Shown: positions 31,680 through 41,104 of the stretch, in pieces
Numbering within the stretch: position 1 is the first letter of the stretch
Layout of the letters: every line of letters begins with the position of its first letter
Source: a phage
Length of the DNA stretch: 64,000 nucleotides
Strand: one strand, 5' to 3'
Sequence record: PQ478073.1
Notes under the pieces: model-generated
Databases searched by the model: none
What the model saw: only the letters and a program-made list of their open reading frames with translations
What the model was told of the DNA's origin: nothing
Position numbers and translations under genes: made by a program

Positions 31680-34600
31680 TTAAGAACCGATATTAATATT
31701 ACTTTTAGCTAGTGAGTTAACAATTTGAACATTTTCAACAGATGCAGTACTCAAGAATATTTGGTCTGAACGTGAAGGGATTTCAAATAGAGAACCAAAT
31801 TTTGAATTTGGATTTTGTGCAACTATAACAATAGTACTAATATGTCTACCTAACTGTGAGTGTATGTAAGTACACAAATCAGTATAATAGAAACTTTCAC
31901 CGAAATCCCAGTTATCAACATTGAAGTATTCATTAGTTAATGCTATGACATTTTGACGAATTTCATCATCACTCATTGTGCTGTTTGGTAATTTCACTAC
32001 TTTAAAATCAGCTTTGTAATCTTCAGCAGCACTGTTTCCAAATAAAGGTAAGTACTCAGCACTATGCCAAATGATACTATCACTAATGACTATTTTTTGT
32101 TCAACATCTTTGAACATATCTTTTAATTCAACCGATGTTGGTGGTTTAGGAATACTACCAACAGCATTATTTTTCAACCAAACGTCAACTTCAGTTTTAT
32201 ATGAATTGGTTAATACATACATATCAATTAAGTTTGTTCTACTAGGATCAATGCGATTGTCGTCAGGTGCATAGTGTTTCCAATGGAAGTCTATACTAGT
32301 ACGTGCATTAGTTTTAACAGTGTACTGTGAAGTAACATCTTTGTATCCATAATAATCTAGCTTCTGATTCTCGTCAGCATTAGTTCCCATGTTATTAATT
32401 GCACGATAAAAAGCCAATTCAGGACTAACAGTGCCAGTATCATCGGAATAAGTTAAATTACTAATTAGTTGTCCCAAACGATCATTGTTATTGCCAACTG
32501 TTTGTTCAATAAAATAATATTTACCATCATAGTTAAAACCAACTAAAAATCCAGAACCTTTACTATATAATCCACTCAATGTGGTTGAACGAATTGCGTT
32601 ATTTCTAACAAATTCAGTTCTTTTATATGCATTCGGCTCTGCCAAAGCTTGTTCCATTGTATAAGACCACGATGAATCAAGAAGTGTGAAGGTATCATTT
32701 GGTAACGACAGTACTGATATAGTGAAATCACTATTTTCCTGAAATACCAAAATACCACCATATTTTAATGCATCGGTTCCAGTCCAAGTAGGAACAATTT
32801 CTTTAAATTGGTTTGGTTCCAATGGTATACCATTACTATCTACTTTCCTAGATGTAACAATAACACGAGAACCATCTAGATAGCCATTCTCTTGTTGAAT
32901 TGTGTCATAAATTTGAAAATCTATATTACTTGTCAATCCTGAATTACTACTACTAGTAGTGTTAGATGATAAAATTTCAATCTTATCACTTTGAACTGTA
33001 CCAGTACTTATATCAGTAATTTTTTTAGATGATACAAAGTAAAATCTTACTTTTTCTCCACCCACAAAAATATATTCAATACCGTTAGCATCAAATTCCC
33101 AAGTTTCTGCTGTATATTTTACATTTATTATAATTAAAACTTCATTACCATTATACACAATAGTATCGTCATTAGTACTTGCTTCGATTGGAACCCATGA
33201 AGTTGTTTCTTTATCATGTACAATTACAAAATCGGTTTTTTTATCCAACATAGCAGAAATAGACTGAACTTCAACTGTGTTAAATCTAGTTCTATATGGT
33301 AATATGTACTCTATTGCTTGCATTCCACTAGGAACAGATGTGCTTAGTACATAAAAACCATTATCTAACACACTTACAACACTTGCCCATATCGTAGTAC
33401 CAGAATTAGAAAATTTAATAAGAGTACCTACCTGATACGAACCATACACTGTTCCAGACGAACCCAAAATTCTGCCATATGTATTGGTTGTGTAATTTGA
33501 ATTGTACACTGGAGTCCATGCTTGTTGTATTTCAATACCAATTGTATTGGATGGATACGCTTGATAACGTTGTATTACTGCATTTTCCCCAATCAATGGT
33601 TGAATATTGTCAATAACAATACTAGCATTTGTTTTTGTAGTTGGGAGCAATAACGATCTATTAAATTGCGTGTTTTCTTGATATAATGCACCATCATCAC
33701 TAAAAACGTCGGTATTCTGATACTTACCAGTAGGATCATTGATATCAATGAACCTTGATTGACCACTATAAATTCTATTAATAGCTTTAGATTTAAGTAC
33801 TGTATTTCCTAAACTAAGTGGTGCTATATTATAATCTTCACCATTGACAAAACGGTTTTGGGTATAGTACATTTGTGGTGCACGTGCTTTAATCTGCTCA
33901 ATAGTTTCAGCACTTTGTGCACGGTCGGACTCATATTGTAATGAAAAACGTATATCCAATGTACTAGATTCATAACTTGACTGTGTTTTTGTACGATATG
34001 TATATTTTACGCTTTTATTTTGAATTTCAGAAGTTTTAATGTTATATGTTTTACCATTACTAACACGATACCATACACGGAACGTCCCACGGGGAACAAC
34101 ACCACTTCTTGAGTCTGGGTACTTAATTGTTATTTGGTCTTTATCACGAGTAGTAACAGCAAAAATTGTTTTTAATTGACGATTAACAGTGTTATATGCA
34201 ATACTTTCCATTGATGGAACTTTTGTCCATTTGGTACGAACAATACCATCTTCATTTATTTCTTGAACCCATACATCAGTTTCGTTGATATTATCAACGT
34301 TAATATCTTGTATACGGTTCTCTTCACGGATAGCATATTGATAATCTTGATATGTTAATGTACCTTGTACGAAATATACAAAAAACCCAGTATTTGGTGA
34401 GCTAAATCCATTACCATCATTTTGATAAACAATATATTTTTGCTCTTGTGGTTCTGGATGTCGTTCTTCAACACCAACAGACGTAATGTCAGGATTCACT
34501 ACTTCAAATGTCATAGATTCACCATTGACAGTTGCAATAAATGGAATACTGGGTGCTGTCATTGGGATGGTGTTCATTCGATATAGTTGACGGGAGACAC

Positions 34601-35141
34601 CATTAACATCAATACGCTTGACTGGATTACCAAATTGGTTAGTACTGACAAATGAACTGTTCATTACTAGAATAAAGTTTTCATACCAGTTAGCATCCAT
34701 CGGGTCATTCCAACGAATAATTTTATCTTTTAATGATTCATTAAAACTATTACGAACATCTTGGTTTGTTTTAATTTCGGTTAATTTAGCAACTGCACGA
34801 CCTGGATATGAGCGGCGTGGTGAGTAAGAAATCATTTTAGCTAGTTTTAGTACTGATGCACGACGAGTTGCAGTATCTAAAAAGTTTTCACGTGTGTTCA
34901 AATCCATACGAAATGCCAAGTTCTGACCTAGCATAGAAATCGTATCTAAAATAAAAATAAACTGGTCGTTTTCGATCCAGTCATTGAATGAGTCTGGGTA
35001 AGTTGCACGTAGATAATCAATCATACTCTGACGGATAGTGTCGAAATCATAAGCTGTTAGATTGATTTTATAAAAACTTTCATATACTTGAGTCCAATCC
35101 TCACCAGCGTATAAATTTGATTGCCTTTTTTGTTGTGACAT
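31680..35141 (-). CDS. baseplate wedge protein, gp6 / Baseplate-J-like candidate (1153 aa)
   Basis: Sits immediately downstream of the gp25-like gene (the conserved gp25-gp6 / W-J order); AAGGA SD. The assignment is mainly positional. Confidence 0.45.
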   Translation of the reverse strand: MSQQKRQSNLYAGEDWTQVYESFYKINLTAYDFDTIRQSMIDYLRATYPDSFNDWIENDQFIFILDTISMLGQNLAFRMDLNTRENFLDTATRRASVLKLAKMISYSPRRSYPGRAVAKLTEIKTNQDVRNSFNESLKDKIIRWNDPMDANWYENFILVMNSSFVSTNQFGNPVKRIDVNGVSRQLYRMNTIPMTAPSIPFIATVNGESMTFEVVNPDITSVGVEERHPEPQEQKYIVYQNDGNGFSSPNTGFFVYFVQGTLTYQDYQYAIREENRIQDINVDNINETDVWVQEINEDGIVRTKWTKVPSMESIAYNTVNRQLKTIFAVTTRDKDQITIKYPDSRSGVVPRGTFRVWYRVSNGKTYNIKTSEIQNKSVKYTYRTKTQSSYESSTLDIRFSLQYESDRAQSAETIEQIKARAPQMYYTQNRFVNGEDYNIAPLSLGNTVLKSKAINRIYSGQSRFIDINDPTGKYQNTDVFSDDGALYQENTQFNRSLLLPTTKTNASIVIDNIQPLIGENAVIQRYQAYPSNTIGIEIQQAWTPVYNSNYTTNTYGRILGSSGTVYGSYQVGTLIKFSNSGTTIWASVVSVLDNGFYVLSTSVPSGMQAIEYILPYRTRFNTVEVQSISAMLDKKTDFVIVHDKETTSWVPIEASTNDDTIVYNGNEVLIIINVKYTAETWEFDANGIEYIFVGGEKVRFYFVSSKKITDISTGTVQSDKIEILSSNTTSSSNSGLTSNIDFQIYDTIQQENGYLDGSRVIVTSRKVDSNGIPLEPNQFKEIVPTWTGTDALKYGGILVFQENSDFTISVLSLPNDTFTLLDSSWSYTMEQALAEPNAYKRTEFVRNNAIRSTTLSGLYSKGSGFLVGFNYDGKYYFIEQTVGNNNDRLGQLISNLTYSDDTGTVSPELAFYRAINNMGTNADENQKLDYYGYKDVTSQYTVKTNARTSIDFHWKHYAPDDNRIDPSRTNLIDMYVLTNSYKTEVDVWLKNNAVGSIPKPPTSVELKDMFKDVEQKIVISDSIIWHSAEYLPLFGNSAAEDYKADFKVVKLPNSTMSDDEIRQNVIALTNEYFNVDNWDFGESFYYTDLCTYIHSQLGRHISTIVIVAQNPNSKFGSLFEIPSRSDQIFLSTASVENVQIVNSLAKSNINIGS

Positions 35142-35242: not shown

Positions 35243-35638
35243 TTATAAAGACGAAACTGAATATGTTGCCATTCGGTTATTACTTCTAGCATCAAATACA
35301 ATAGTAAGTTCTTCTAATGCATCTAATACTACATACTCTAATACGATGTTCATTTGATAACCATATTCTATTCTTGAAATTTGCAATTTCTTGAGATTCA
35401 ATCTTGGATCTAAGCTAATTATTCTACGGGCATCTGCTTCTAAAAGGTTGATAGTATTATAACCTTCTAGTTCAAATAACAAATCCCATGCAATAAAACC
35501 ATAGTCCGCATCAAATGCTCTTTCGCCTTTTTTTGTGTTAAAATGATTCATTAAATCTTGACGAACCAGTTCACTATCATACAATGTTTCGGTTCTACCC
35601 ACAACAGGAGTATGAAATCCTTTAAAAACAACTGCCAT
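35243..35638 (-). CDS. 25: baseplate wedge protein, gp25 / GPW-like (131 aa)
   Basis: Size and pattern RTETLYDSELVRQDLMNHFNTKKGERAFDADYGFIAWDLLFE resemble T4 gp25 (...TRKGSRPFDPEFGCDLSDQLFE...); located between lysozyme and the gp6-like gene. Confidence 0.7.
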   Translation of the reverse strand: MAVVFKGFHTPVVGRTETLYDSELVRQDLMNHFNTKKGERAFDADYGFIAWDLLFELEGYNTINLLEADARRIISLDPRLNLKKLQISRIEYGYQMNIVLEYVVLDALEELTIVFDARSNNRMATYSVSSL

Positions 35639-35652
35639 TGATTATTCCTTTA

Positions 35653-36141
35653 TTATACGGATTCAACGATACGTGCCATCTTTTCCGCTCTTGAAGTGGT
35701 TTGTTTATACCAAGTACTATCACGCATTTCTTTACCAGCAGTTTTGTAATCACCCTTACCCAAAGCAGTGAGTGCTTTTTTGAATTTCAAAACTTTGGTT
35801 TTGCCCATTTGGAATACCATTAACCATAATACACGTTGTACTTGGACTGGTGCGGTCATACCAAATTGTTCATAAATTGATTTTGCATCATTGTACGCAG
35901 TTTGTGCATCTTTAAGAAGAAGTTGGTCAGCTTGTGATTCAGTTAGTCCATTTTTGAAGTTTTCACCTGGAAGAACTAGATGACCATAACCAATAGTATC
36001 AAGACCTAAGCTGTCTTTATATACCCAAAACTTATCATTTTTAAAATAACCAAGTTTTTTCTGGTATGCAATTGTACCTTCAAATTCTTTTACTTCTTTG
36101 AAAAATTGCTCATCTGTATTTTTAATTTCCCATTTACTCAT
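35653..36141 (-). CDS. e: T4-type lysozyme (GH24), endolysin candidate (162 aa)
   Basis: EFEG...YKDSLGLDTIGYGHL (Glu/Asp/Thr catalytic pattern of T4 lysozyme) and LWLMVFQMGKTKVLKF; paralogous to the C-terminal domain of the neighbouring gp5-like protein. Confidence 0.88.
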   Translation of the reverse strand: MSKWEIKNTDEQFFKEVKEFEGTIAYQKKLGYFKNDKFWVYKDSLGLDTIGYGHLVLPGENFKNGLTESQADQLLLKDAQTAYNDAKSIYEQFGMTAPVQVQRVLWLMVFQMGKTKVLKFKKALTALGKGDYKTAGKEMRDSTWYKQTTSRAEKMARIVESV

Positions 36142-36157
36142 AAAGATATCCTCGTTT

Positions 36158-36165
36158 TATTTATA
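36158..36165 (-). promoter_or_regulatory. candidate late promoter (TATAAATA) for lysozyme gene
   Basis: Exact minus-strand TATAAATA 17 nt upstream of ATG 36141. Confidence 0.4.
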
Positions 36166-36177
36166 GTGCTAAAATAT

Positions 36178-38841
36178 TTATTGACATGCCTCCAAACGAC
36201 GAGCCATTAACTCCGCACGGCGGGTGGTTTGGCGATACCAAGCAGAATTGCGGATTTGTGCCGCTGCTTGTTTATAATTACCTTTTGCCATTTCTGATAA
36301 CATAGTTTTAAATTTCAATACACCACCTTTACCCATCTGAAATACCATTTGGCATAGTACTTGTTGAGCAAGATAAGGAGTTTTCATGTTATATGAAGCA
36401 TAAATTGATTTGGCATCATAAATTGCTTTACTACTATCACGAACTAACATATCATTTGCTTGTTGTTCAGTTATTCCATCAGAGAAGTTTTCACCGCTAA
36501 CAATTAAGTGACCGTAACCAATAGTTGGATATCCACGACTATCTAAATAACGCCAGAACTTACCATTACGATAATACCCCTTTGCTTGTTGATATTGTAA
36601 TGTACCCTCATATTCTTTTAATTCAGAAATAAACTGAGCATCACCAGGAACAACTTTCCAATCTATGGCTGTTTTATCAACATTACCTATATTATAAGTT
36701 GGTTGCTCAACTGGCGTAGTTGAAACACCACTTCTTTGTGTTCTTCTTCGACGAGGAACATGTCGTGAACCACGTTGTGAATAACCTGTACCAATTGTTT
36801 TAATTTTTGTAGTAACTACTAATTCATCACTATCAACAGAAGGTTGCACTACTGCTTGAGGTGCAGATTGATTGGTTGCTTTTCCTGCAATTAATGTTTT
36901 ATTGGCTGCGTCAGAACCAGTACCAGTTTGAGATGCATAAAATAGACCCGGATCAACTGAACCGCTAAAACCAAGCACGTTAGCTGATGTAACACGTATT
37001 TCAAACTGTATAACACCATTTGCTTTACCAACAACTTGGCCTTTTTGAACAACATCTTTGTTTAATAAATCAGATTGAATATTATAAAATACAGATTTAT
37101 ATCCTGACTTATGTTGTATTAACAGTGCACCATTAGTAATTACTATTACACCACCATCGGGTGCAACTATGTCACCTTTACATTGTATTTCCCATCCAGA
37201 ACGATCTGACTTCCCACCACTTTGTGTTGGAACACCTTTCCCCCAATAACCATATTGGCGAATAGTACCACTACATGGCATGAACATATGTAAACCTTCA
37301 TATGTAATACTATATCCAGTCATCCCAGGGTCAGATGTCATTAAATCTTGAGATTGCACTTGTTCAGTTTCTGATGTATAGTTAACAAACTGAACAGCTT
37401 CAGTGTCTTGTGCTACGGGTAATTCTGGTGATACATCATTTGCTGGTTGTGGTTGTACTGGTGATTCACTAGAACCACTTCCACCACCTTGTCTTGGTGG
37501 TTCAACATAACTACCATGATTTTCAGCGTTAACCCATGCAGCAATATCATGAATGTGTTCATTAAGACCAGCAGATGGTGTTCTAAAGTTTGGTGCAGTA
37601 AATTCAGCAGTACCGCTATTACCACCACTATTAACTGTTAATGTTTGACCACCACCACTAATAATTGCTGATGATGATCCAATTAGGTTTGCAGATGTTG
37701 CGGCAGAAATAGAAGCATTTGAACCAGCCGTAATATCAGTACTGCTACCACTTTGCATACGTAATGATGCAGCAGTAACTAAACGAAGGTCTGCCCCAGA
37801 ATTAACAACAACTTGTCCACCAACTTTTGCATCAAGAGCACCAATTAGATCTAATTTAGTATTTGCACCAACTCGTGCATTGAAATCTTGTCCGGTTTCA
37901 ATATTATATGAACGTCCAGCAGTAATATTAATATCTTGACCAGCACGAATATTAATATTCTTATCACAGTGCATGTCAATATCACCTTCACCAGTGAATT
38001 TTATACGTGCAGTGCCATCACGGTTAATTAAAAGAACATCACCAGTAGCTTCTGATAAAAGAAGTTGTGCACCACTACGTGTTTTTATTACGACACCTTC
38101 ATTTTTACGAGAACCAACACGTGTATCGTTTACTGGGTTATTAAATTGTGTATCTTGATATCCATCTGGGTCTTGATCCCACGTTGGTGCTGTTAATTCC
38201 TCTTCAGTATATCCATCATCAATAATAAAACTATTACCACGTGGCGAAGACATACCATATACAGTACTGGTGGTTTGTCGAGTACTACTACGATTCGCCA
38301 ACCCAGCTTCTTCGTCATATAAAAGGTTTTGCTTTTTAAGACCTGCGATAATTGGAACGTTAGCATATTTGTCTTGCATATCGGTAGTGATAGTGTTACG
38401 ATCATAGTCAGTAACAGGAAGTGGCATATCAGTTCCACCATAATTACTTACTTCAGTTGCCATGCCTGGAACCATAGTATTCATACGCTGGTCATATACA
38501 CAACCAATCCAATATGCTTGGAATGTACGGGCTTGTGCAAAAATTACAACAACTGTACACCCTACGTCTGGTGGTACTGCCCAAAAACCGTATCCTTTTG
38601 GATATTGACCATATGCATCAGCACTTGGAATACCTGGTGTTTTACCAGCAAAAGGAGACATGTAAGATGCTTCTATCCATGATTCTTTTGAGTTTTTATC
38701 ACTTTGAGAACCTTGTATCCAAACTTTCAGTTTTCCTGATTTAGTTGGATCTCTGTTATCCATAACAGTTGCTAACTGCGGATAAGATGGGTCAAAACGA
38801 CCCAACTGCTGTTGTGCATACTTTTTACTTGTATCTGCCAT
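36178..38841 (-). CDS. 5: baseplate central spike, gp5-like, with C-terminal T4-type lysozyme domain (887 aa)
   Basis: N-terminal OB-like region (GKLKVWIQG...); VgrG/gp5-like beta-helical repeats (INIRAGQDINITAGRSYNIETGQDFNARVGANTKLDL...); M23/LytM-like segment lacking the usual His/Asp zinc ligands (~36994-37323); C-terminal GH24 lysozyme (TIGYGHL, QMVFQMGKGGV; ~36181-36663). Confidence 0.75.
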   Translation of the reverse strand: MADTSKKYAQQQLGRFDPSYPQLATVMDNRDPTKSGKLKVWIQGSQSDKNSKESWIEASYMSPFAGKTPGIPSADAYGQYPKGYGFWAVPPDVGCTVVVIFAQARTFQAYWIGCVYDQRMNTMVPGMATEVSNYGGTDMPLPVTDYDRNTITTDMQDKYANVPIIAGLKKQNLLYDEEAGLANRSSTRQTTSTVYGMSSPRGNSFIIDDGYTEEELTAPTWDQDPDGYQDTQFNNPVNDTRVGSRKNEGVVIKTRSGAQLLLSEATGDVLLINRDGTARIKFTGEGDIDMHCDKNINIRAGQDINITAGRSYNIETGQDFNARVGANTKLDLIGALDAKVGGQVVVNSGADLRLVTAASLRMQSGSSTDITAGSNASISAATSANLIGSSSAIISGGGQTLTVNSGGNSGTAEFTAPNFRTPSAGLNEHIHDIAAWVNAENHGSYVEPPRQGGGSGSSESPVQPQPANDVSPELPVAQDTEAVQFVNYTSETEQVQSQDLMTSDPGMTGYSITYEGLHMFMPCSGTIRQYGYWGKGVPTQSGGKSDRSGWEIQCKGDIVAPDGGVIVITNGALLIQHKSGYKSVFYNIQSDLLNKDVVQKGQVVGKANGVIQFEIRVTSANVLGFSGSVDPGLFYASQTGTGSDAANKTLIAGKATNQSAPQAVVQPSVDSDELVVTTKIKTIGTGYSQRGSRHVPRRRRTQRSGVSTTPVEQPTYNIGNVDKTAIDWKVVPGDAQFISELKEYEGTLQYQQAKGYYRNGKFWRYLDSRGYPTIGYGHLIVSGENFSDGITEQQANDMLVRDSSKAIYDAKSIYASYNMKTPYLAQQVLCQMVFQMGKGGVLKFKTMLSEMAKGNYKQAAAQIRNSAWYRQTTRRAELMARRLEACQ

Positions 38842-38854
38842 AATATTTTATTCC

Positions 38855-41104
38855 TTAATCAACTATACTATCGTGACGTTTAAGTGCACGAATTACAATT
38901 GCAGCTTGAATTTGTTGTGTAAAAGAACCACCTGCACCAAAATCATGAACAATTTTATTAACACGATAAATTGTTTGGTTAAATGTGGTTGGTGTATTAA
39001 TATCCAAAACACCAGTGTTATCATTTATTGATATTACTGGTTGTAATTTTAGTAATAGATACGCTTCAGATGTTATATAATTTGCTACATGATAATCATC
39101 TGGGTTAATTTCCATATCTTCACCATTAATTACTTGTTCTAGATATTGTAAGTAAGAGTAATCACTCCACCCTAACCAGTACGGGTCGCCTACTACACGC
39201 ATATCGAGTTTACACAAAAAAGGTCTATTGTAATAGTTGTCACGTATTTTACGTCTATCCATTTCATATGTGCTGCTGTTATCGTTTAACGAAGCGGATA
39301 AAGTTGTTTCATTGTTAGTTGCTTCGGTTGGCATTGTGAACACTTCACCATAACGGTGACCAACACCATCAGTACCGCCATCGTTTTCTTCATAAGTGGT
39401 TACATAATCTTCAATATATTGAGGTAAAACATTGACTTGATAGTTATTATAACGGTCTTGTTCTTCTGCGTTACCAACCTGCATTTGATTTTTTGCTAAA
39501 GTTTCAACTTCAGTTAACAATTGTTGTTGGGCTTGTGTTAACATCCCTCCTAAATCACGAGTTACACGTAAATCACTTGTTTTTGCCCATGCGTCTGGTA
39601 TACTATTGTATTGTACACCTTGAATATTGAGTTCTTGGGATGTATGTGTACCTGCATGGTTCGCTACATCTTGTATCGGACCAGGGTTACGTGTAGTGGC
39701 TACGAAAAATTGCTGATCAAATTTCAAATCCAAATCAAGTATCTCACTATTAAGCCCACTAAATTGATAATTATAAGTTTTCATGTTTATTTTTGGTTTT
39801 TGATCATTAGGATCTACGTATTTTTCTGCGTTCTCAAAAAAGTACTCAAATGTGAAATTTTCAGGTTGTAAATCCGATTCATGAACAATATCACCTATTT
39901 TAAATCTAACAATATAAAAAATTACTTTATAAACAGAAGTATTACGATAATTATCAAAACCAACGTATTGTTTAACTGGTATAATGTTTACAAATTGACG
40001 CACACTAGTACTATCATCGGCTTGTACAGTACATGTATCAATAACGTCATCAATAATTCGAGATATAGGAGTACTTGGGTTCCATGAAAAGTTTTTAGAA
40101 CCTTGTGCACCACTTTTAGTTGTTCCGGCCTCTGCCATTTGTTTAGAATCATAGTTTATAAACAAATCTTGCAAATCAGGTGCTACTTTAAATTCGAAAA
40201 ATTTACCTTCGGATAATTCACCAAATTTATATCTAAGATAACCATATTGTTGGTCAGCCATCTGATTTAATTTATCTTCTAAATCAAAGCAGAAGTCACC
40301 AAAGTTTTCAGCAGTACAATTGAATGGTTCTTTTAAGGTCCATTCAATGTTATCAACTAAAGCTGCTCTATTATGAACTAAGTTCATAGTATACATCATA
40401 GTACTACCACTTTGTGAAGCACTTGCAGTAACACTATTAATTTTAACTGACCAGCGTCTTGTTGTTTCTGGGATAATTTCAGGTATTCCATTTTTATTAA
40501 AGCCAATAAACTTTAATTCCAAGATCAATGGCAAGTCCATAAATTTATGATATCTAAGTTTGTTACTTAACGAAATTAATTCATCATATAGACTCATACT
40601 ATTATTTTCAGACATATTAAGTACTGCTGTATTAAAACAATAGTTTGTTGTCATTCCTGGTGTTGAAGGTCCAGCTTGTGTCATTTGTACACTAGTGATA
40701 TTATATTTGCCAGTAACACCACTTTCTGATATCACATGTCGTTGCACTTCTGCATCTGGGTAAAGCCAAAAGTTTTTAAAATCATCTTTATCTAAGGCAA
40801 ATAAACAAAAGTGCCAAGTTGGGTTATCATATTTCAATAATTTATTGTCATACGGTATTACAAACTGACTTAAATCGAGATCTTCATAAACTTGATCAAC
40901 ACTAGCACTTTGTTTTGGTAATGATACTACATTACTTACATTTGCTTTGTAATTATTTTTTGTAATAGTTTTTACATCATTTTGTAATGTATTTGCTGTA
41001 GCTTTCAAACTATCAAGTGCATTAGATGTGGTGGTTTTAGCCTTACCAGTAATACTTGTAATATCATTTTGAAAATTATCAACTGTACTTCGTAAATCTG
41101 CCAT
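38855..41104 (-). CDS. putative baseplate hub protein (749 aa)
   Basis: Immediately upstream of the gp5-like spike gene in the same operon; no motif recognised, assignment is positional. Confidence 0.4.
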   Translation of the reverse strand: MADLRSTVDNFQNDITSITGKAKTTTSNALDSLKATANTLQNDVKTITKNNYKANVSNVVSLPKQSASVDQVYEDLDLSQFVIPYDNKLLKYDNPTWHFCLFALDKDDFKNFWLYPDAEVQRHVISESGVTGKYNITSVQMTQAGPSTPGMTTNYCFNTAVLNMSENNSMSLYDELISLSNKLRYHKFMDLPLILELKFIGFNKNGIPEIIPETTRRWSVKINSVTASASQSGSTMMYTMNLVHNRAALVDNIEWTLKEPFNCTAENFGDFCFDLEDKLNQMADQQYGYLRYKFGELSEGKFFEFKVAPDLQDLFINYDSKQMAEAGTTKSGAQGSKNFSWNPSTPISRIIDDVIDTCTVQADDSTSVRQFVNIIPVKQYVGFDNYRNTSVYKVIFYIVRFKIGDIVHESDLQPENFTFEYFFENAEKYVDPNDQKPKINMKTYNYQFSGLNSEILDLDLKFDQQFFVATTRNPGPIQDVANHAGTHTSQELNIQGVQYNSIPDAWAKTSDLRVTRDLGGMLTQAQQQLLTEVETLAKNQMQVGNAEEQDRYNNYQVNVLPQYIEDYVTTYEENDGGTDGVGHRYGEVFTMPTEATNNETTLSASLNDNSSTYEMDRRKIRDNYYNRPFLCKLDMRVVGDPYWLGWSDYSYLQYLEQVINGEDMEINPDDYHVANYITSEAYLLLKLQPVISINDNTGVLDINTPTTFNQTIYRVNKIVHDFGAGGSFTQQIQAAIVIRALKRHDSIVD

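What the first reader, a model, noticed from the sequence alone, without database searches (positions are those of the whole stretch)
36178..38841. gp5-like spike with rearranged domain order, a degenerate M23/LytM-like module and a lysozyme paralogue next door
T4 gp5 runs OB-fold, then lysozyme, then beta-helix. Here the order appears to be OB-fold, beta-helical repeats, an M23/LytM-like segment with the usual His/Asp zinc ligands not evident (FEIR instead of an HxH motif), then a C-terminal GH24 lysozyme. A free GH24 lysozyme (35653-36141) is encoded immediately downstream. The degenerate LytM could be a non-catalytic cell-wall-binding or activator domain.
Basis: partly seen in the sequence, partly recalled or inferred. 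Interest (0 to 1): 0.55.

Follow-up and report, generated by a model that had tools for sequence, protein, structure and literature searches.

The report
Phage tail spike with dead peptidase
This is the cell-puncturing needle protein of a giant E. coli virus: behind the needle it carries an intact wall-cutting lysozyme and a second wall-enzyme fold that has lost every catalytic residue yet is tightly conserved; the odd layout was already published, but the 'dead' state of the middle module apparently was not.

Summary
The window is a 121Q-like (Rak2-like, Asteriusvirus) jumbo coliphage. ORF 36178-38841(-) is its 887-aa central spike. Its order is OB fold (20-116), conserved region (117-245), VgrG/gp5-type beta-helix (246-420), linker (421-511), M23/LytM fold (512-655), linker (656-727), GH24 lysozyme (728-887). 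The M23 fold is shown by profile and by structure search. None of 87 homologues (down to 36% identity) has a His at any of the four zinc-ligand or catalytic His columns, yet the domain is as conserved as the lysozyme. So it is a maintained, non-catalytic degenerate LytM. In the window both lysozyme copies keep the T4L-type Glu/Asp/Thr. The free copy (35653-36141) is 53% identical, arose from one old duplication and has its own late promoter. Enzyme-after-helix is lineage-wide, as in evolved VgrGs. Papers on RaK2 (2013) and CBB (2017) already noted the unusual order and a possible M23 domain. The new points are the degeneracy and an invariant HxH at the helix end. The role of the dead module (binding or regulatory adaptor for the lysozyme) is inferred, not shown. 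Moderate interest.

The parts
38494..38784 (-). Spike residues 20-116: gp5/VgrG-type OB-fold that docks the spike to the hub/tube
   Evidence: Pfam PF04717 Phage_base_V 23-116, 29.8 bits vs cut-off 23.8. Most conserved part of the protein (mean pairwise identity 0.67). The full-length model matches CIS/T6SS spikes.
38107..38493 (-). Spike residues 117-245: highly conserved region between OB and helix (MNTMVPG, PVTDYDRN, GLKKQNLLYD, NRSSTRQ motifs); role not assigned
   Evidence: 39% of columns are >=90% conserved. AF2 confidence is only 50-70 as a monomer. No Pfam family.
37582..38106 (-). Spike residues 246-420: triple-stranded beta-helix needle (VgrG/gp5C type)
   Evidence: Pfam DUF2345 34.9 bits vs 30.7. 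The profile hits VgrG1 4uhv (1.1e-5), other VgrGs and a T4-like gp5 in the PDB. Foldseek of the full model hits AlgoCIS, Anabaena CIS and VgrG spikes over 330-380 columns.
37549..37557 (-). H429-I-H431: invariant HxH at the end of the beta-helix, candidate intermolecular metal 'histidine cage'
   Evidence: H429 and H431 are invariant in 87/87 homologues. HxH at the helix end is the published marker of Fe-binding apex domains (10.1101/2023.02.25.529910). Metal binding was not tested. AF2 monomer confidence here is <50.
37309..37581 (-). Residues 421-511: linker 1 (52% P/G/S/T/Q/N) containing the HxH, a conserved PANDV motif (466-470) and a small predicted strand-helix element (478-500)
   Evidence: Least conserved zones of the protein.
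36877..37308 (-). Residues 512-655: degenerate (catalytically dead) M23/LytM-fold domain
   Evidence: Fold. Motif columns: HxxxD -> Q553...D557, catalytic His -> N587, HxH -> V610/Q612. No His at 553, 587, 610 or 612 in 87/87 homologues. It lacks the 7-9-residue loop that precedes HxH. It is as conserved as the lysozyme.
36661..36876 (-). Residues 656-727: linker 2 with conserved strand ELVVTTKIKT and basic motif YSQRGSRHVPRRRR (possible docking or processing site)
   Evidence: Conserved columns S671, L674, V675, I683, G691, S692, P696. Predicted strand 675-682. Function not tested.
36181..36660 (-). Residues 728-887: GH24 T4-type lysozyme domain, catalytic residues intact
   Evidence: Pfam PF00959 44.5 bits vs 22.3. 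Best PDB sequence hits are lysozyme domains of gp5-type spikes and T4L. Foldseek to T4L gives TMt 0.65-0.70. E745 86/87, D767 86/87, T773 61/87 (19 have D).
36158..36165 (-). TATAAATA late-promoter-like octamer 17 nt upstream of the free lysozyme start, followed by a GAGGA ribosome-binding site
   Evidence: Sequence read. All six copies in the window lie on the coding strand 17-50 nt upstream of an ORF start, and the octamer is otherwise depleted (6 vs 11.1 expected). A gp55-like late sigma factor is annotated in 121Q.
35653..36141 (-). Free 162-aa GH24 lysozyme, ancient paralogue of the spike's C-terminal domain
   Evidence: 53% identity, E 2e-58. Free and fused copies form two clades that each mirror the phage tree. 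The orthologue LysUE1 was purified and is lytic with EDTA (PMC12805682). Not detected in virion MS of relatives.
35243..35638 (-). gp25-like baseplate wedge protein (context)
   Evidence: Pfam GPW_gp25 34.8 bits vs 27.2; phrog_43.
38855..41104 (-). 749-aa virion structural protein immediately upstream, co-oriented; candidate hub partner (unassigned)
   Evidence: phrog_11190 'virion structural protein'. No Pfam, NCBIfam or PDB sequence match. Conserved synteny in all enterobacterial relatives.
31680..35141 (-). gp6-like baseplate wedge protein (context)
   Evidence: phrog_10646/phrog_219; 121Q annotation 'baseplate wedge (T4 gp6-like)'.

Best explanation
The ORF is the central cell-puncturing spike of a Rak2-like jumbo myovirus. 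It is built like an 'evolved VgrG'. Shown: an N-terminal OB fold and a VgrG/gp5-type beta-helix needle are followed by a long C-terminal extension. That extension carries a LytM/M23 fold with no zinc-ligand or catalytic histidines, then a GH24 lysozyme with an intact catalytic set. Shown: the dead M23 is ancestral to the clade and is under purifying selection as strong as the lysozyme's. Shown in orthologues (literature): the protein is in virions. Inferred: on sheath contraction the trimeric needle breaches the outer membrane and carries three copies of the dLytM-lysozyme unit into the periplasm. There the lysozyme is the only peptidoglycan-cleaving activity and opens a local hole for the tail tube. 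The dead M23 works as a non-catalytic adaptor. It either binds peptidoglycan stem peptides in its remnant groove to hold the lysozyme on its substrate, or binds the lysozyme itself to keep it in check during assembly, as the degenerate LytM of PrgK does for its muramidase. Inferred: the invariant HxH at the helix end forms an intermolecular metal cage that clamps the needle tip, and the 90-residue linker lets the enzyme modules fold back beside the needle. The free lysozyme next door is an old duplicate, transcribed from its own late promoter and made as a separate soluble enzyme.
For: Identity and context: 98.5% nt identity to 121Q gene 587; the neighbours are gp25-, gp6- and gp53-like baseplate genes. 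Needle: Pfam OB and DUF2345 above cut-off, VgrG/gp5 PDB profile hits, Foldseek hits to CIS/T6SS spikes. M23 fold. Degeneracy: no His at 553/587/610/612 in 87/87 homologues and only two His in the whole domain; the pre-HxH loop is deleted. Selection: mean pairwise identity 0.57 and 23% near-invariant columns, against 0.55 and 24% for the lysozyme and 0.42-0.48 and 8-11% for the linkers. Remnant groove positions stay polar and conserved: Q553 in 77/87, D/N557 in 74/87, W550 invariant. Lysozyme intact. Virion presence of orthologues: phAPEC6 gp241 and CBB_240 by MS. Precedent for a degenerate LytM that regulates a muramidase in an envelope-crossing machine: PrgK, which is also the top structural hit (8s0u). 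Enzyme-after-helix is general in the lineage. HxH is invariant and is a published marker of metal cages. The free paralogue has its own promoter and RBS, and its orthologue is lytic in vitro.
Against: There is no direct evidence for what the dead M23 binds. The full-length AF2 model has pTM 0.45, and no inter-domain contact data were available. As I recall them, most characterised degenerate LytM domains bind proteins rather than peptidoglycan, so the PG-anchor version is the weaker of the two sub-models. Three bulky extensions emerging from a needle tip are mechanically awkward. The protein might be processed (conserved QRGSRHVPRR motif), and MS data give no peptide positions. RaK2 gp078 itself was not detected by MS. 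T773 (the T4L Thr26 equivalent) is Asp in 19/87 homologues, so the fused lysozyme's activity is not guaranteed in all of them. The HxH region was modelled at low confidence as a monomer.
Confidence: 0.5

Rival explanations
1. Host-autolysin hijack. The dead M23 is an EnvC/NlpD mimic. Once in the periplasm it binds the autoinhibitory helix of host amidases (AmiA/B/C) and switches them on locally, so the host's own enzymes help open the sacculus alongside the lysozyme.
For: Among the closest solved structures are the amidase-activating dLytM domains of EnvC (4bh5, 8c0j bound to AmiB, 8tzl) and DipM (7qrl). Zinc ligands are lost as in those activators. The domain is strongly conserved without catalysis. 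The hosts of the clade are Gram-negatives.
Against: The structural similarity is to the M23 fold in general: active LytM, lysostaphin and LasA score almost as well. No coiled-coil or LysM partner domains of EnvC/NlpD were detected. A lysozyme is already attached, so an amidase is not obviously needed.
Confidence: 0.1
2. Purely architectural role. The M23 fold is a docking block that fixes the C-terminal extension to the baseplate hub or to the side of the needle (or helps trimer assembly). It has no interaction with peptidoglycan or with the lysozyme's activity.
For: As I recall, the degenerate LytM of SpoIIQ is a pure protein-protein scaffold; it is a strong profile and fold hit. Conserved motifs inside both linkers suggest specific contacts rather than free tethers. 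Geometry requires the extension to be stowed somewhere in the baseplate.
Against: Related spikes carry GH24 or GH19 after the helix with no M23 block, so docking does not need it. Conservation of polar residues at the remnant active-site groove (Q553, D/N557, W550) fits ligand binding at the old substrate site.
Confidence: 0.22
3. The extension is cleaved off during assembly (as T4 gp5 is nicked). The dLytM-lysozyme fragment then acts mainly inside the infected cell, for example in lysis, rather than at entry.
For: A conserved basic motif YSQRGSRHVPRRRR and a long P/G-rich linker look like processing sites. RaK2 gp078 was not detected in virions.
Against: The orthologues were detected in virions and listed at their full-length predicted mass: 95.9 kDa in phAPEC6, and CBB_240. 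These genomes already encode a free paralogue with its own late promoter and a separate SAR-type endolysin candidate, so a third lysis enzyme seems redundant.
Confidence: 0.08
4. The M23-like domain is still a peptidase that uses non-canonical residues.
For: D557 is present in this sequence, and E614/R616 of the HLHFEIR strand are conserved.
Against: All four His columns lack His in 87/87 sequences, and the substitutes are chemically varied (V/I/T/S at 610; E/Q/T/N/I/V at 612; D/G/N at 587). D557 is N/S/A/T in a third of homologues. The substrate-loop region is deleted.
Confidence: 0.03

Closest known systems
Direct orthologues already described: Klebsiella phage RaK2 gp078 and Pectobacterium phage CBB_240 (also 121Q gp587, phAPEC6 gp241)
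   Same: Same protein family and architecture (52-98% identity). The RaK2 paper called the domain composition 'very unusual' (beta-helix flanked by unknown regions plus a C-terminal lysozyme). [quoted passage not shown]
   Different: Neither paper reports that the M23 module lacks all catalytic or zinc-ligand histidines, that this holds across the clade under purifying selection, or the invariant HxH at the helix end. Full-text searches found no paper saying so.
Bacteriophage T4 gp5 (tail-associated lysozyme / cell-puncturing device)
   Same: OB fold, GH24 lysozyme and triple beta-helix in one trimeric baseplate spike. The lysozyme domain's best PDB sequence matches include gp5-type lysozyme domains (7cn7, 9f4a, 1k28). 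Baseplate neighbours are gp25/gp6/gp53-like.
   Different: Order is OB-helix-[dLytM]-lysozyme rather than OB-lysozyme-helix. There is an extra dead M23 fold. HxH lies at the helix end, whereas T4 gp5 lacks HxH and uses the PAAR protein gp5.4. No PAAR was found among the small ORFs of this window.
Evolved (specialised) T6SS VgrG spikes with C-terminal effector domains, e.g. P. aeruginosa VgrG2b (metallopeptidase; PMC6899460) and V. cholerae VgrG-3 (peptidoglycan hydrolase; from memory)
   Same: Beta-helix needle followed by a linker and enzyme domain(s) that act in the target periplasm. The helix is homologous (VgrG1 profile hit 1.1e-5; Foldseek 9jg9_E).
   Different: No fused gp27-like module at the N-terminus. 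It is a phage virion protein rather than a secretion-system spike. It carries two tandem wall-enzyme folds, one of them dead.
PrgK of the pCF10 type IV secretion system (degenerate LytM + muramidase + CHAP)
   Same: An envelope-crossing machine whose wall hydrolase combines a metal-free degenerate LytM with an active muramidase. There the LytM (with CHAP) down-regulates the muramidase (PMC11323569). The PrgK LytM is the top structural match (8s0u, E 3.9e-6).
   Different: Gram-positive conjugation system, SLT-fold rather than GH24 muramidase, membrane-anchored rather than needle-fused. Only 14% sequence identity, so this is an analogy, not orthology.
Degenerate LytM regulators EnvC / NlpD / DipM / SpoIIQ
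   Same: M23 fold without zinc ligands, used for binding rather than catalysis. All are strong fold and/or profile hits.
   Different: Those are bacterial division or sporulation factors with coiled-coil, LysM or transmembrane partners. Here the fold sits inside a phage spike beside a lysozyme, and no amidase-activation test was done.
Active M23 domains in phage virion proteins (phi29 gp13 lysozyme+LytM tail protein, from memory; tape-measure and ejection proteins with M23; cyanophage A4 pre-ejectosome 9k2v)
   Same: M23 folds are common in tail or ejection proteins that must cross peptidoglycan.
   Different: From memory, phi29 gp13's M23 is an active metallopeptidase; motif status was not checked here for the tape-measure, ejection-protein or 9k2v hits. 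The spike's is dead and shortened.
P2 gpV / phi92 gp138 iron-loaded spikes
   Same: OB + beta-helix + HxH at the helix end.
   Different: In those spikes the HxH apex is the C-terminus of the protein. Here 456 more residues follow it, and metal binding is untested.

Membership tests
gp5/VgrG-type central baseplate spike | N-terminal OB-fold (Phage_base_V) | tested here: met
   PF04717 29.8 bits vs cut-off 23.8, residues 23-116.
gp5/VgrG-type central baseplate spike | Triple-stranded beta-helix repeat region | tested here: met
   PF10106 34.9 bits vs 30.7; VgrG1/VgrG/gp5 PDB profile hits; Foldseek hits to CIS/T6SS spikes. Trimer formation itself could not be modelled.
gp5/VgrG-type central baseplate spike | Encoded in a baseplate gene cluster and present in virions | tested here: met
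   Neighbours are gp25-, gp6- and gp53-like. Orthologues were detected in virions by MS (phAPEC6 gp241, CBB_240). RaK2 gp078 was not detected.
GH24 T4-type lysozyme (fused domain 728-887) | Family profile above curated threshold and T4L fold | tested here: met
   PF00959 44.5 bits vs 22.3; Foldseek to T4L TMt 0.65-0.70.
GH24 T4-type lysozyme (fused domain 728-887) | Catalytic Glu11 / Asp20 / Thr26 equivalents | tested here: met
   E745, D767, T773 are present. E and D are in 86/87 homologues; T is in 61/87 with D in 19.
GH24 T4-type lysozyme (fused domain 728-887) | Muramidase activity | not testable with these tools
   Only the orthologue of the free paralogue (LysUE1) has been assayed.
MEROPS M23 metallopeptidase (active enzyme) | M23/LytM fold | tested here: met
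   AF2 pLDDT 88.7; 50/50 top Foldseek PDB hits are M23/LytM; profile hits.
MEROPS M23 metallopeptidase (active enzyme) | HxxxD zinc-ligand motif | tested here: not met
   Q553-C-K-G-D557. Position 553 is Q in 77/87 and never His; 557 varies (D/N/S/E/A/T). The register was assigned by alignment to the LytM consensus from memory. Independently, there is no His anywhere in 541-576.
MEROPS M23 metallopeptidase (active enzyme) | HxH motif and the third catalytic His | tested here: not met
   HLHFE aligns to V610-I-Q612-F-E (zoocin A alignment). The catalytic His aligns to N587 (LasA alignment). There are 0/87 His at 587, 610 and 612.
MEROPS M23 metallopeptidase (active enzyme) | Pfam PF01551 above gathering score | tested here: not met
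   21.5 bits vs 28.7 for this sequence. Whether any orthologue clears the cut-off was not read out (best E 7.7e-7); some database homologues carry a precomputed PF01551 hit.
Degenerate LytM (dLytM) domains | LytM fold lacking the metal ligands, conserved without catalysis | tested here: met
EnvC/NlpD-type amidase activators | Binds and activates cell-wall amidases; accompanied by coiled-coil or LysM domains | not testable with these tools
   No coiled-coil or LysM family was detected in the protein. Amidase binding could not be tested.
Iron-loaded apex spikes (P2 gpV / phi92 gp138) | HxH at the end of the beta-helix | tested here: met
   H429-x-H431 invariant 87/87; criterion.
Iron-loaded apex spikes (P2 gpV / phi92 gp138) | Apex is the C-terminal end of the protein; Fe bound by six His | tested here: not met
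   456 residues follow the HxH. Metal binding is not testable here, and the region was modelled at pLDDT <50 as a monomer.

The most novel reading that the evidence does not exclude
The spike injects a dead LytM domain that mimics the bacterial regulators EnvC/NlpD and switches on the host's own periplasmic amidases at the point of entry. The phage would then open the cell wall partly with the host's autolysins. Alternatively, the module is a built-in safety catch that releases the lysozyme only after puncture.
Probability: 0.12. Interest if true: 0.8.

Novelty: new variant of a known kind. Interest (0 to 1): 0.4.

Why it matters
Central spikes are the part of contractile phages and T6SS-like machines that first meets the cell envelope. 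How they get through peptidoglycan is understood mainly from T4 gp5. This clade of ~350-kb phages infects E. coli, Klebsiella, Salmonella, Erwinia and other enterobacteria, and several members are discussed as phage-therapy candidates. It uses a different solution: enzymes tethered behind the needle, one of them a conserved pseudo-enzyme. If the dead LytM regulates the lysozyme or recruits host amidases, it would extend the 'degenerate LytM as regulator' principle from bacterial division to virus entry. It would also give a compact, testable system: three small domains, each expressible alone. If it is only a docking block, the finding is a modest annotation refinement.

Tried and rejected
(1) Pfam on the full-length protein did not report M23 even at E<=1; it appeared only when the segment was scanned alone. 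(2) The word-indexed protein search with the middle segment alone found nothing. That is a sensitivity limit of the index, since the full-length query returned 86 full-length homologues. (3) The PDB profile hit that aligned the post-helix 'GLNEHIHYH' to the end of VgrG1 4uhv matches that construct's His-tag and was discarded as an artefact. (4) hmmalign of non-spike M23 hits to the spike profile is out of register around HxH, because the spike clade lacks the preceding loop. Their motif state was therefore read by eye (intact PHLHFEIR/YAHL in several, degenerate in others) and not tabulated. (5) Virion MS peptide positions, sought to test processing of the C-terminal extension, were not available. 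(6) The 749-aa upstream neighbour as a gp27-like hub: no Pfam, NCBIfam or PDB sequence match, so it is left unassigned. (7) A PAAR cap among ten small ORFs of the window: none found; the rest of the genome is outside the window. (8) AF2 coordinates and PAE are not exposed by the tool, so dLytM-lysozyme contacts and the histidine cage could not be examined. (9) A sigma-70 promoter scan was uninformative (34 found vs 34.7 expected). (10) The idea that the free and fused lysozymes result from recent duplication or gene conversion was rejected by the two-clade tree.
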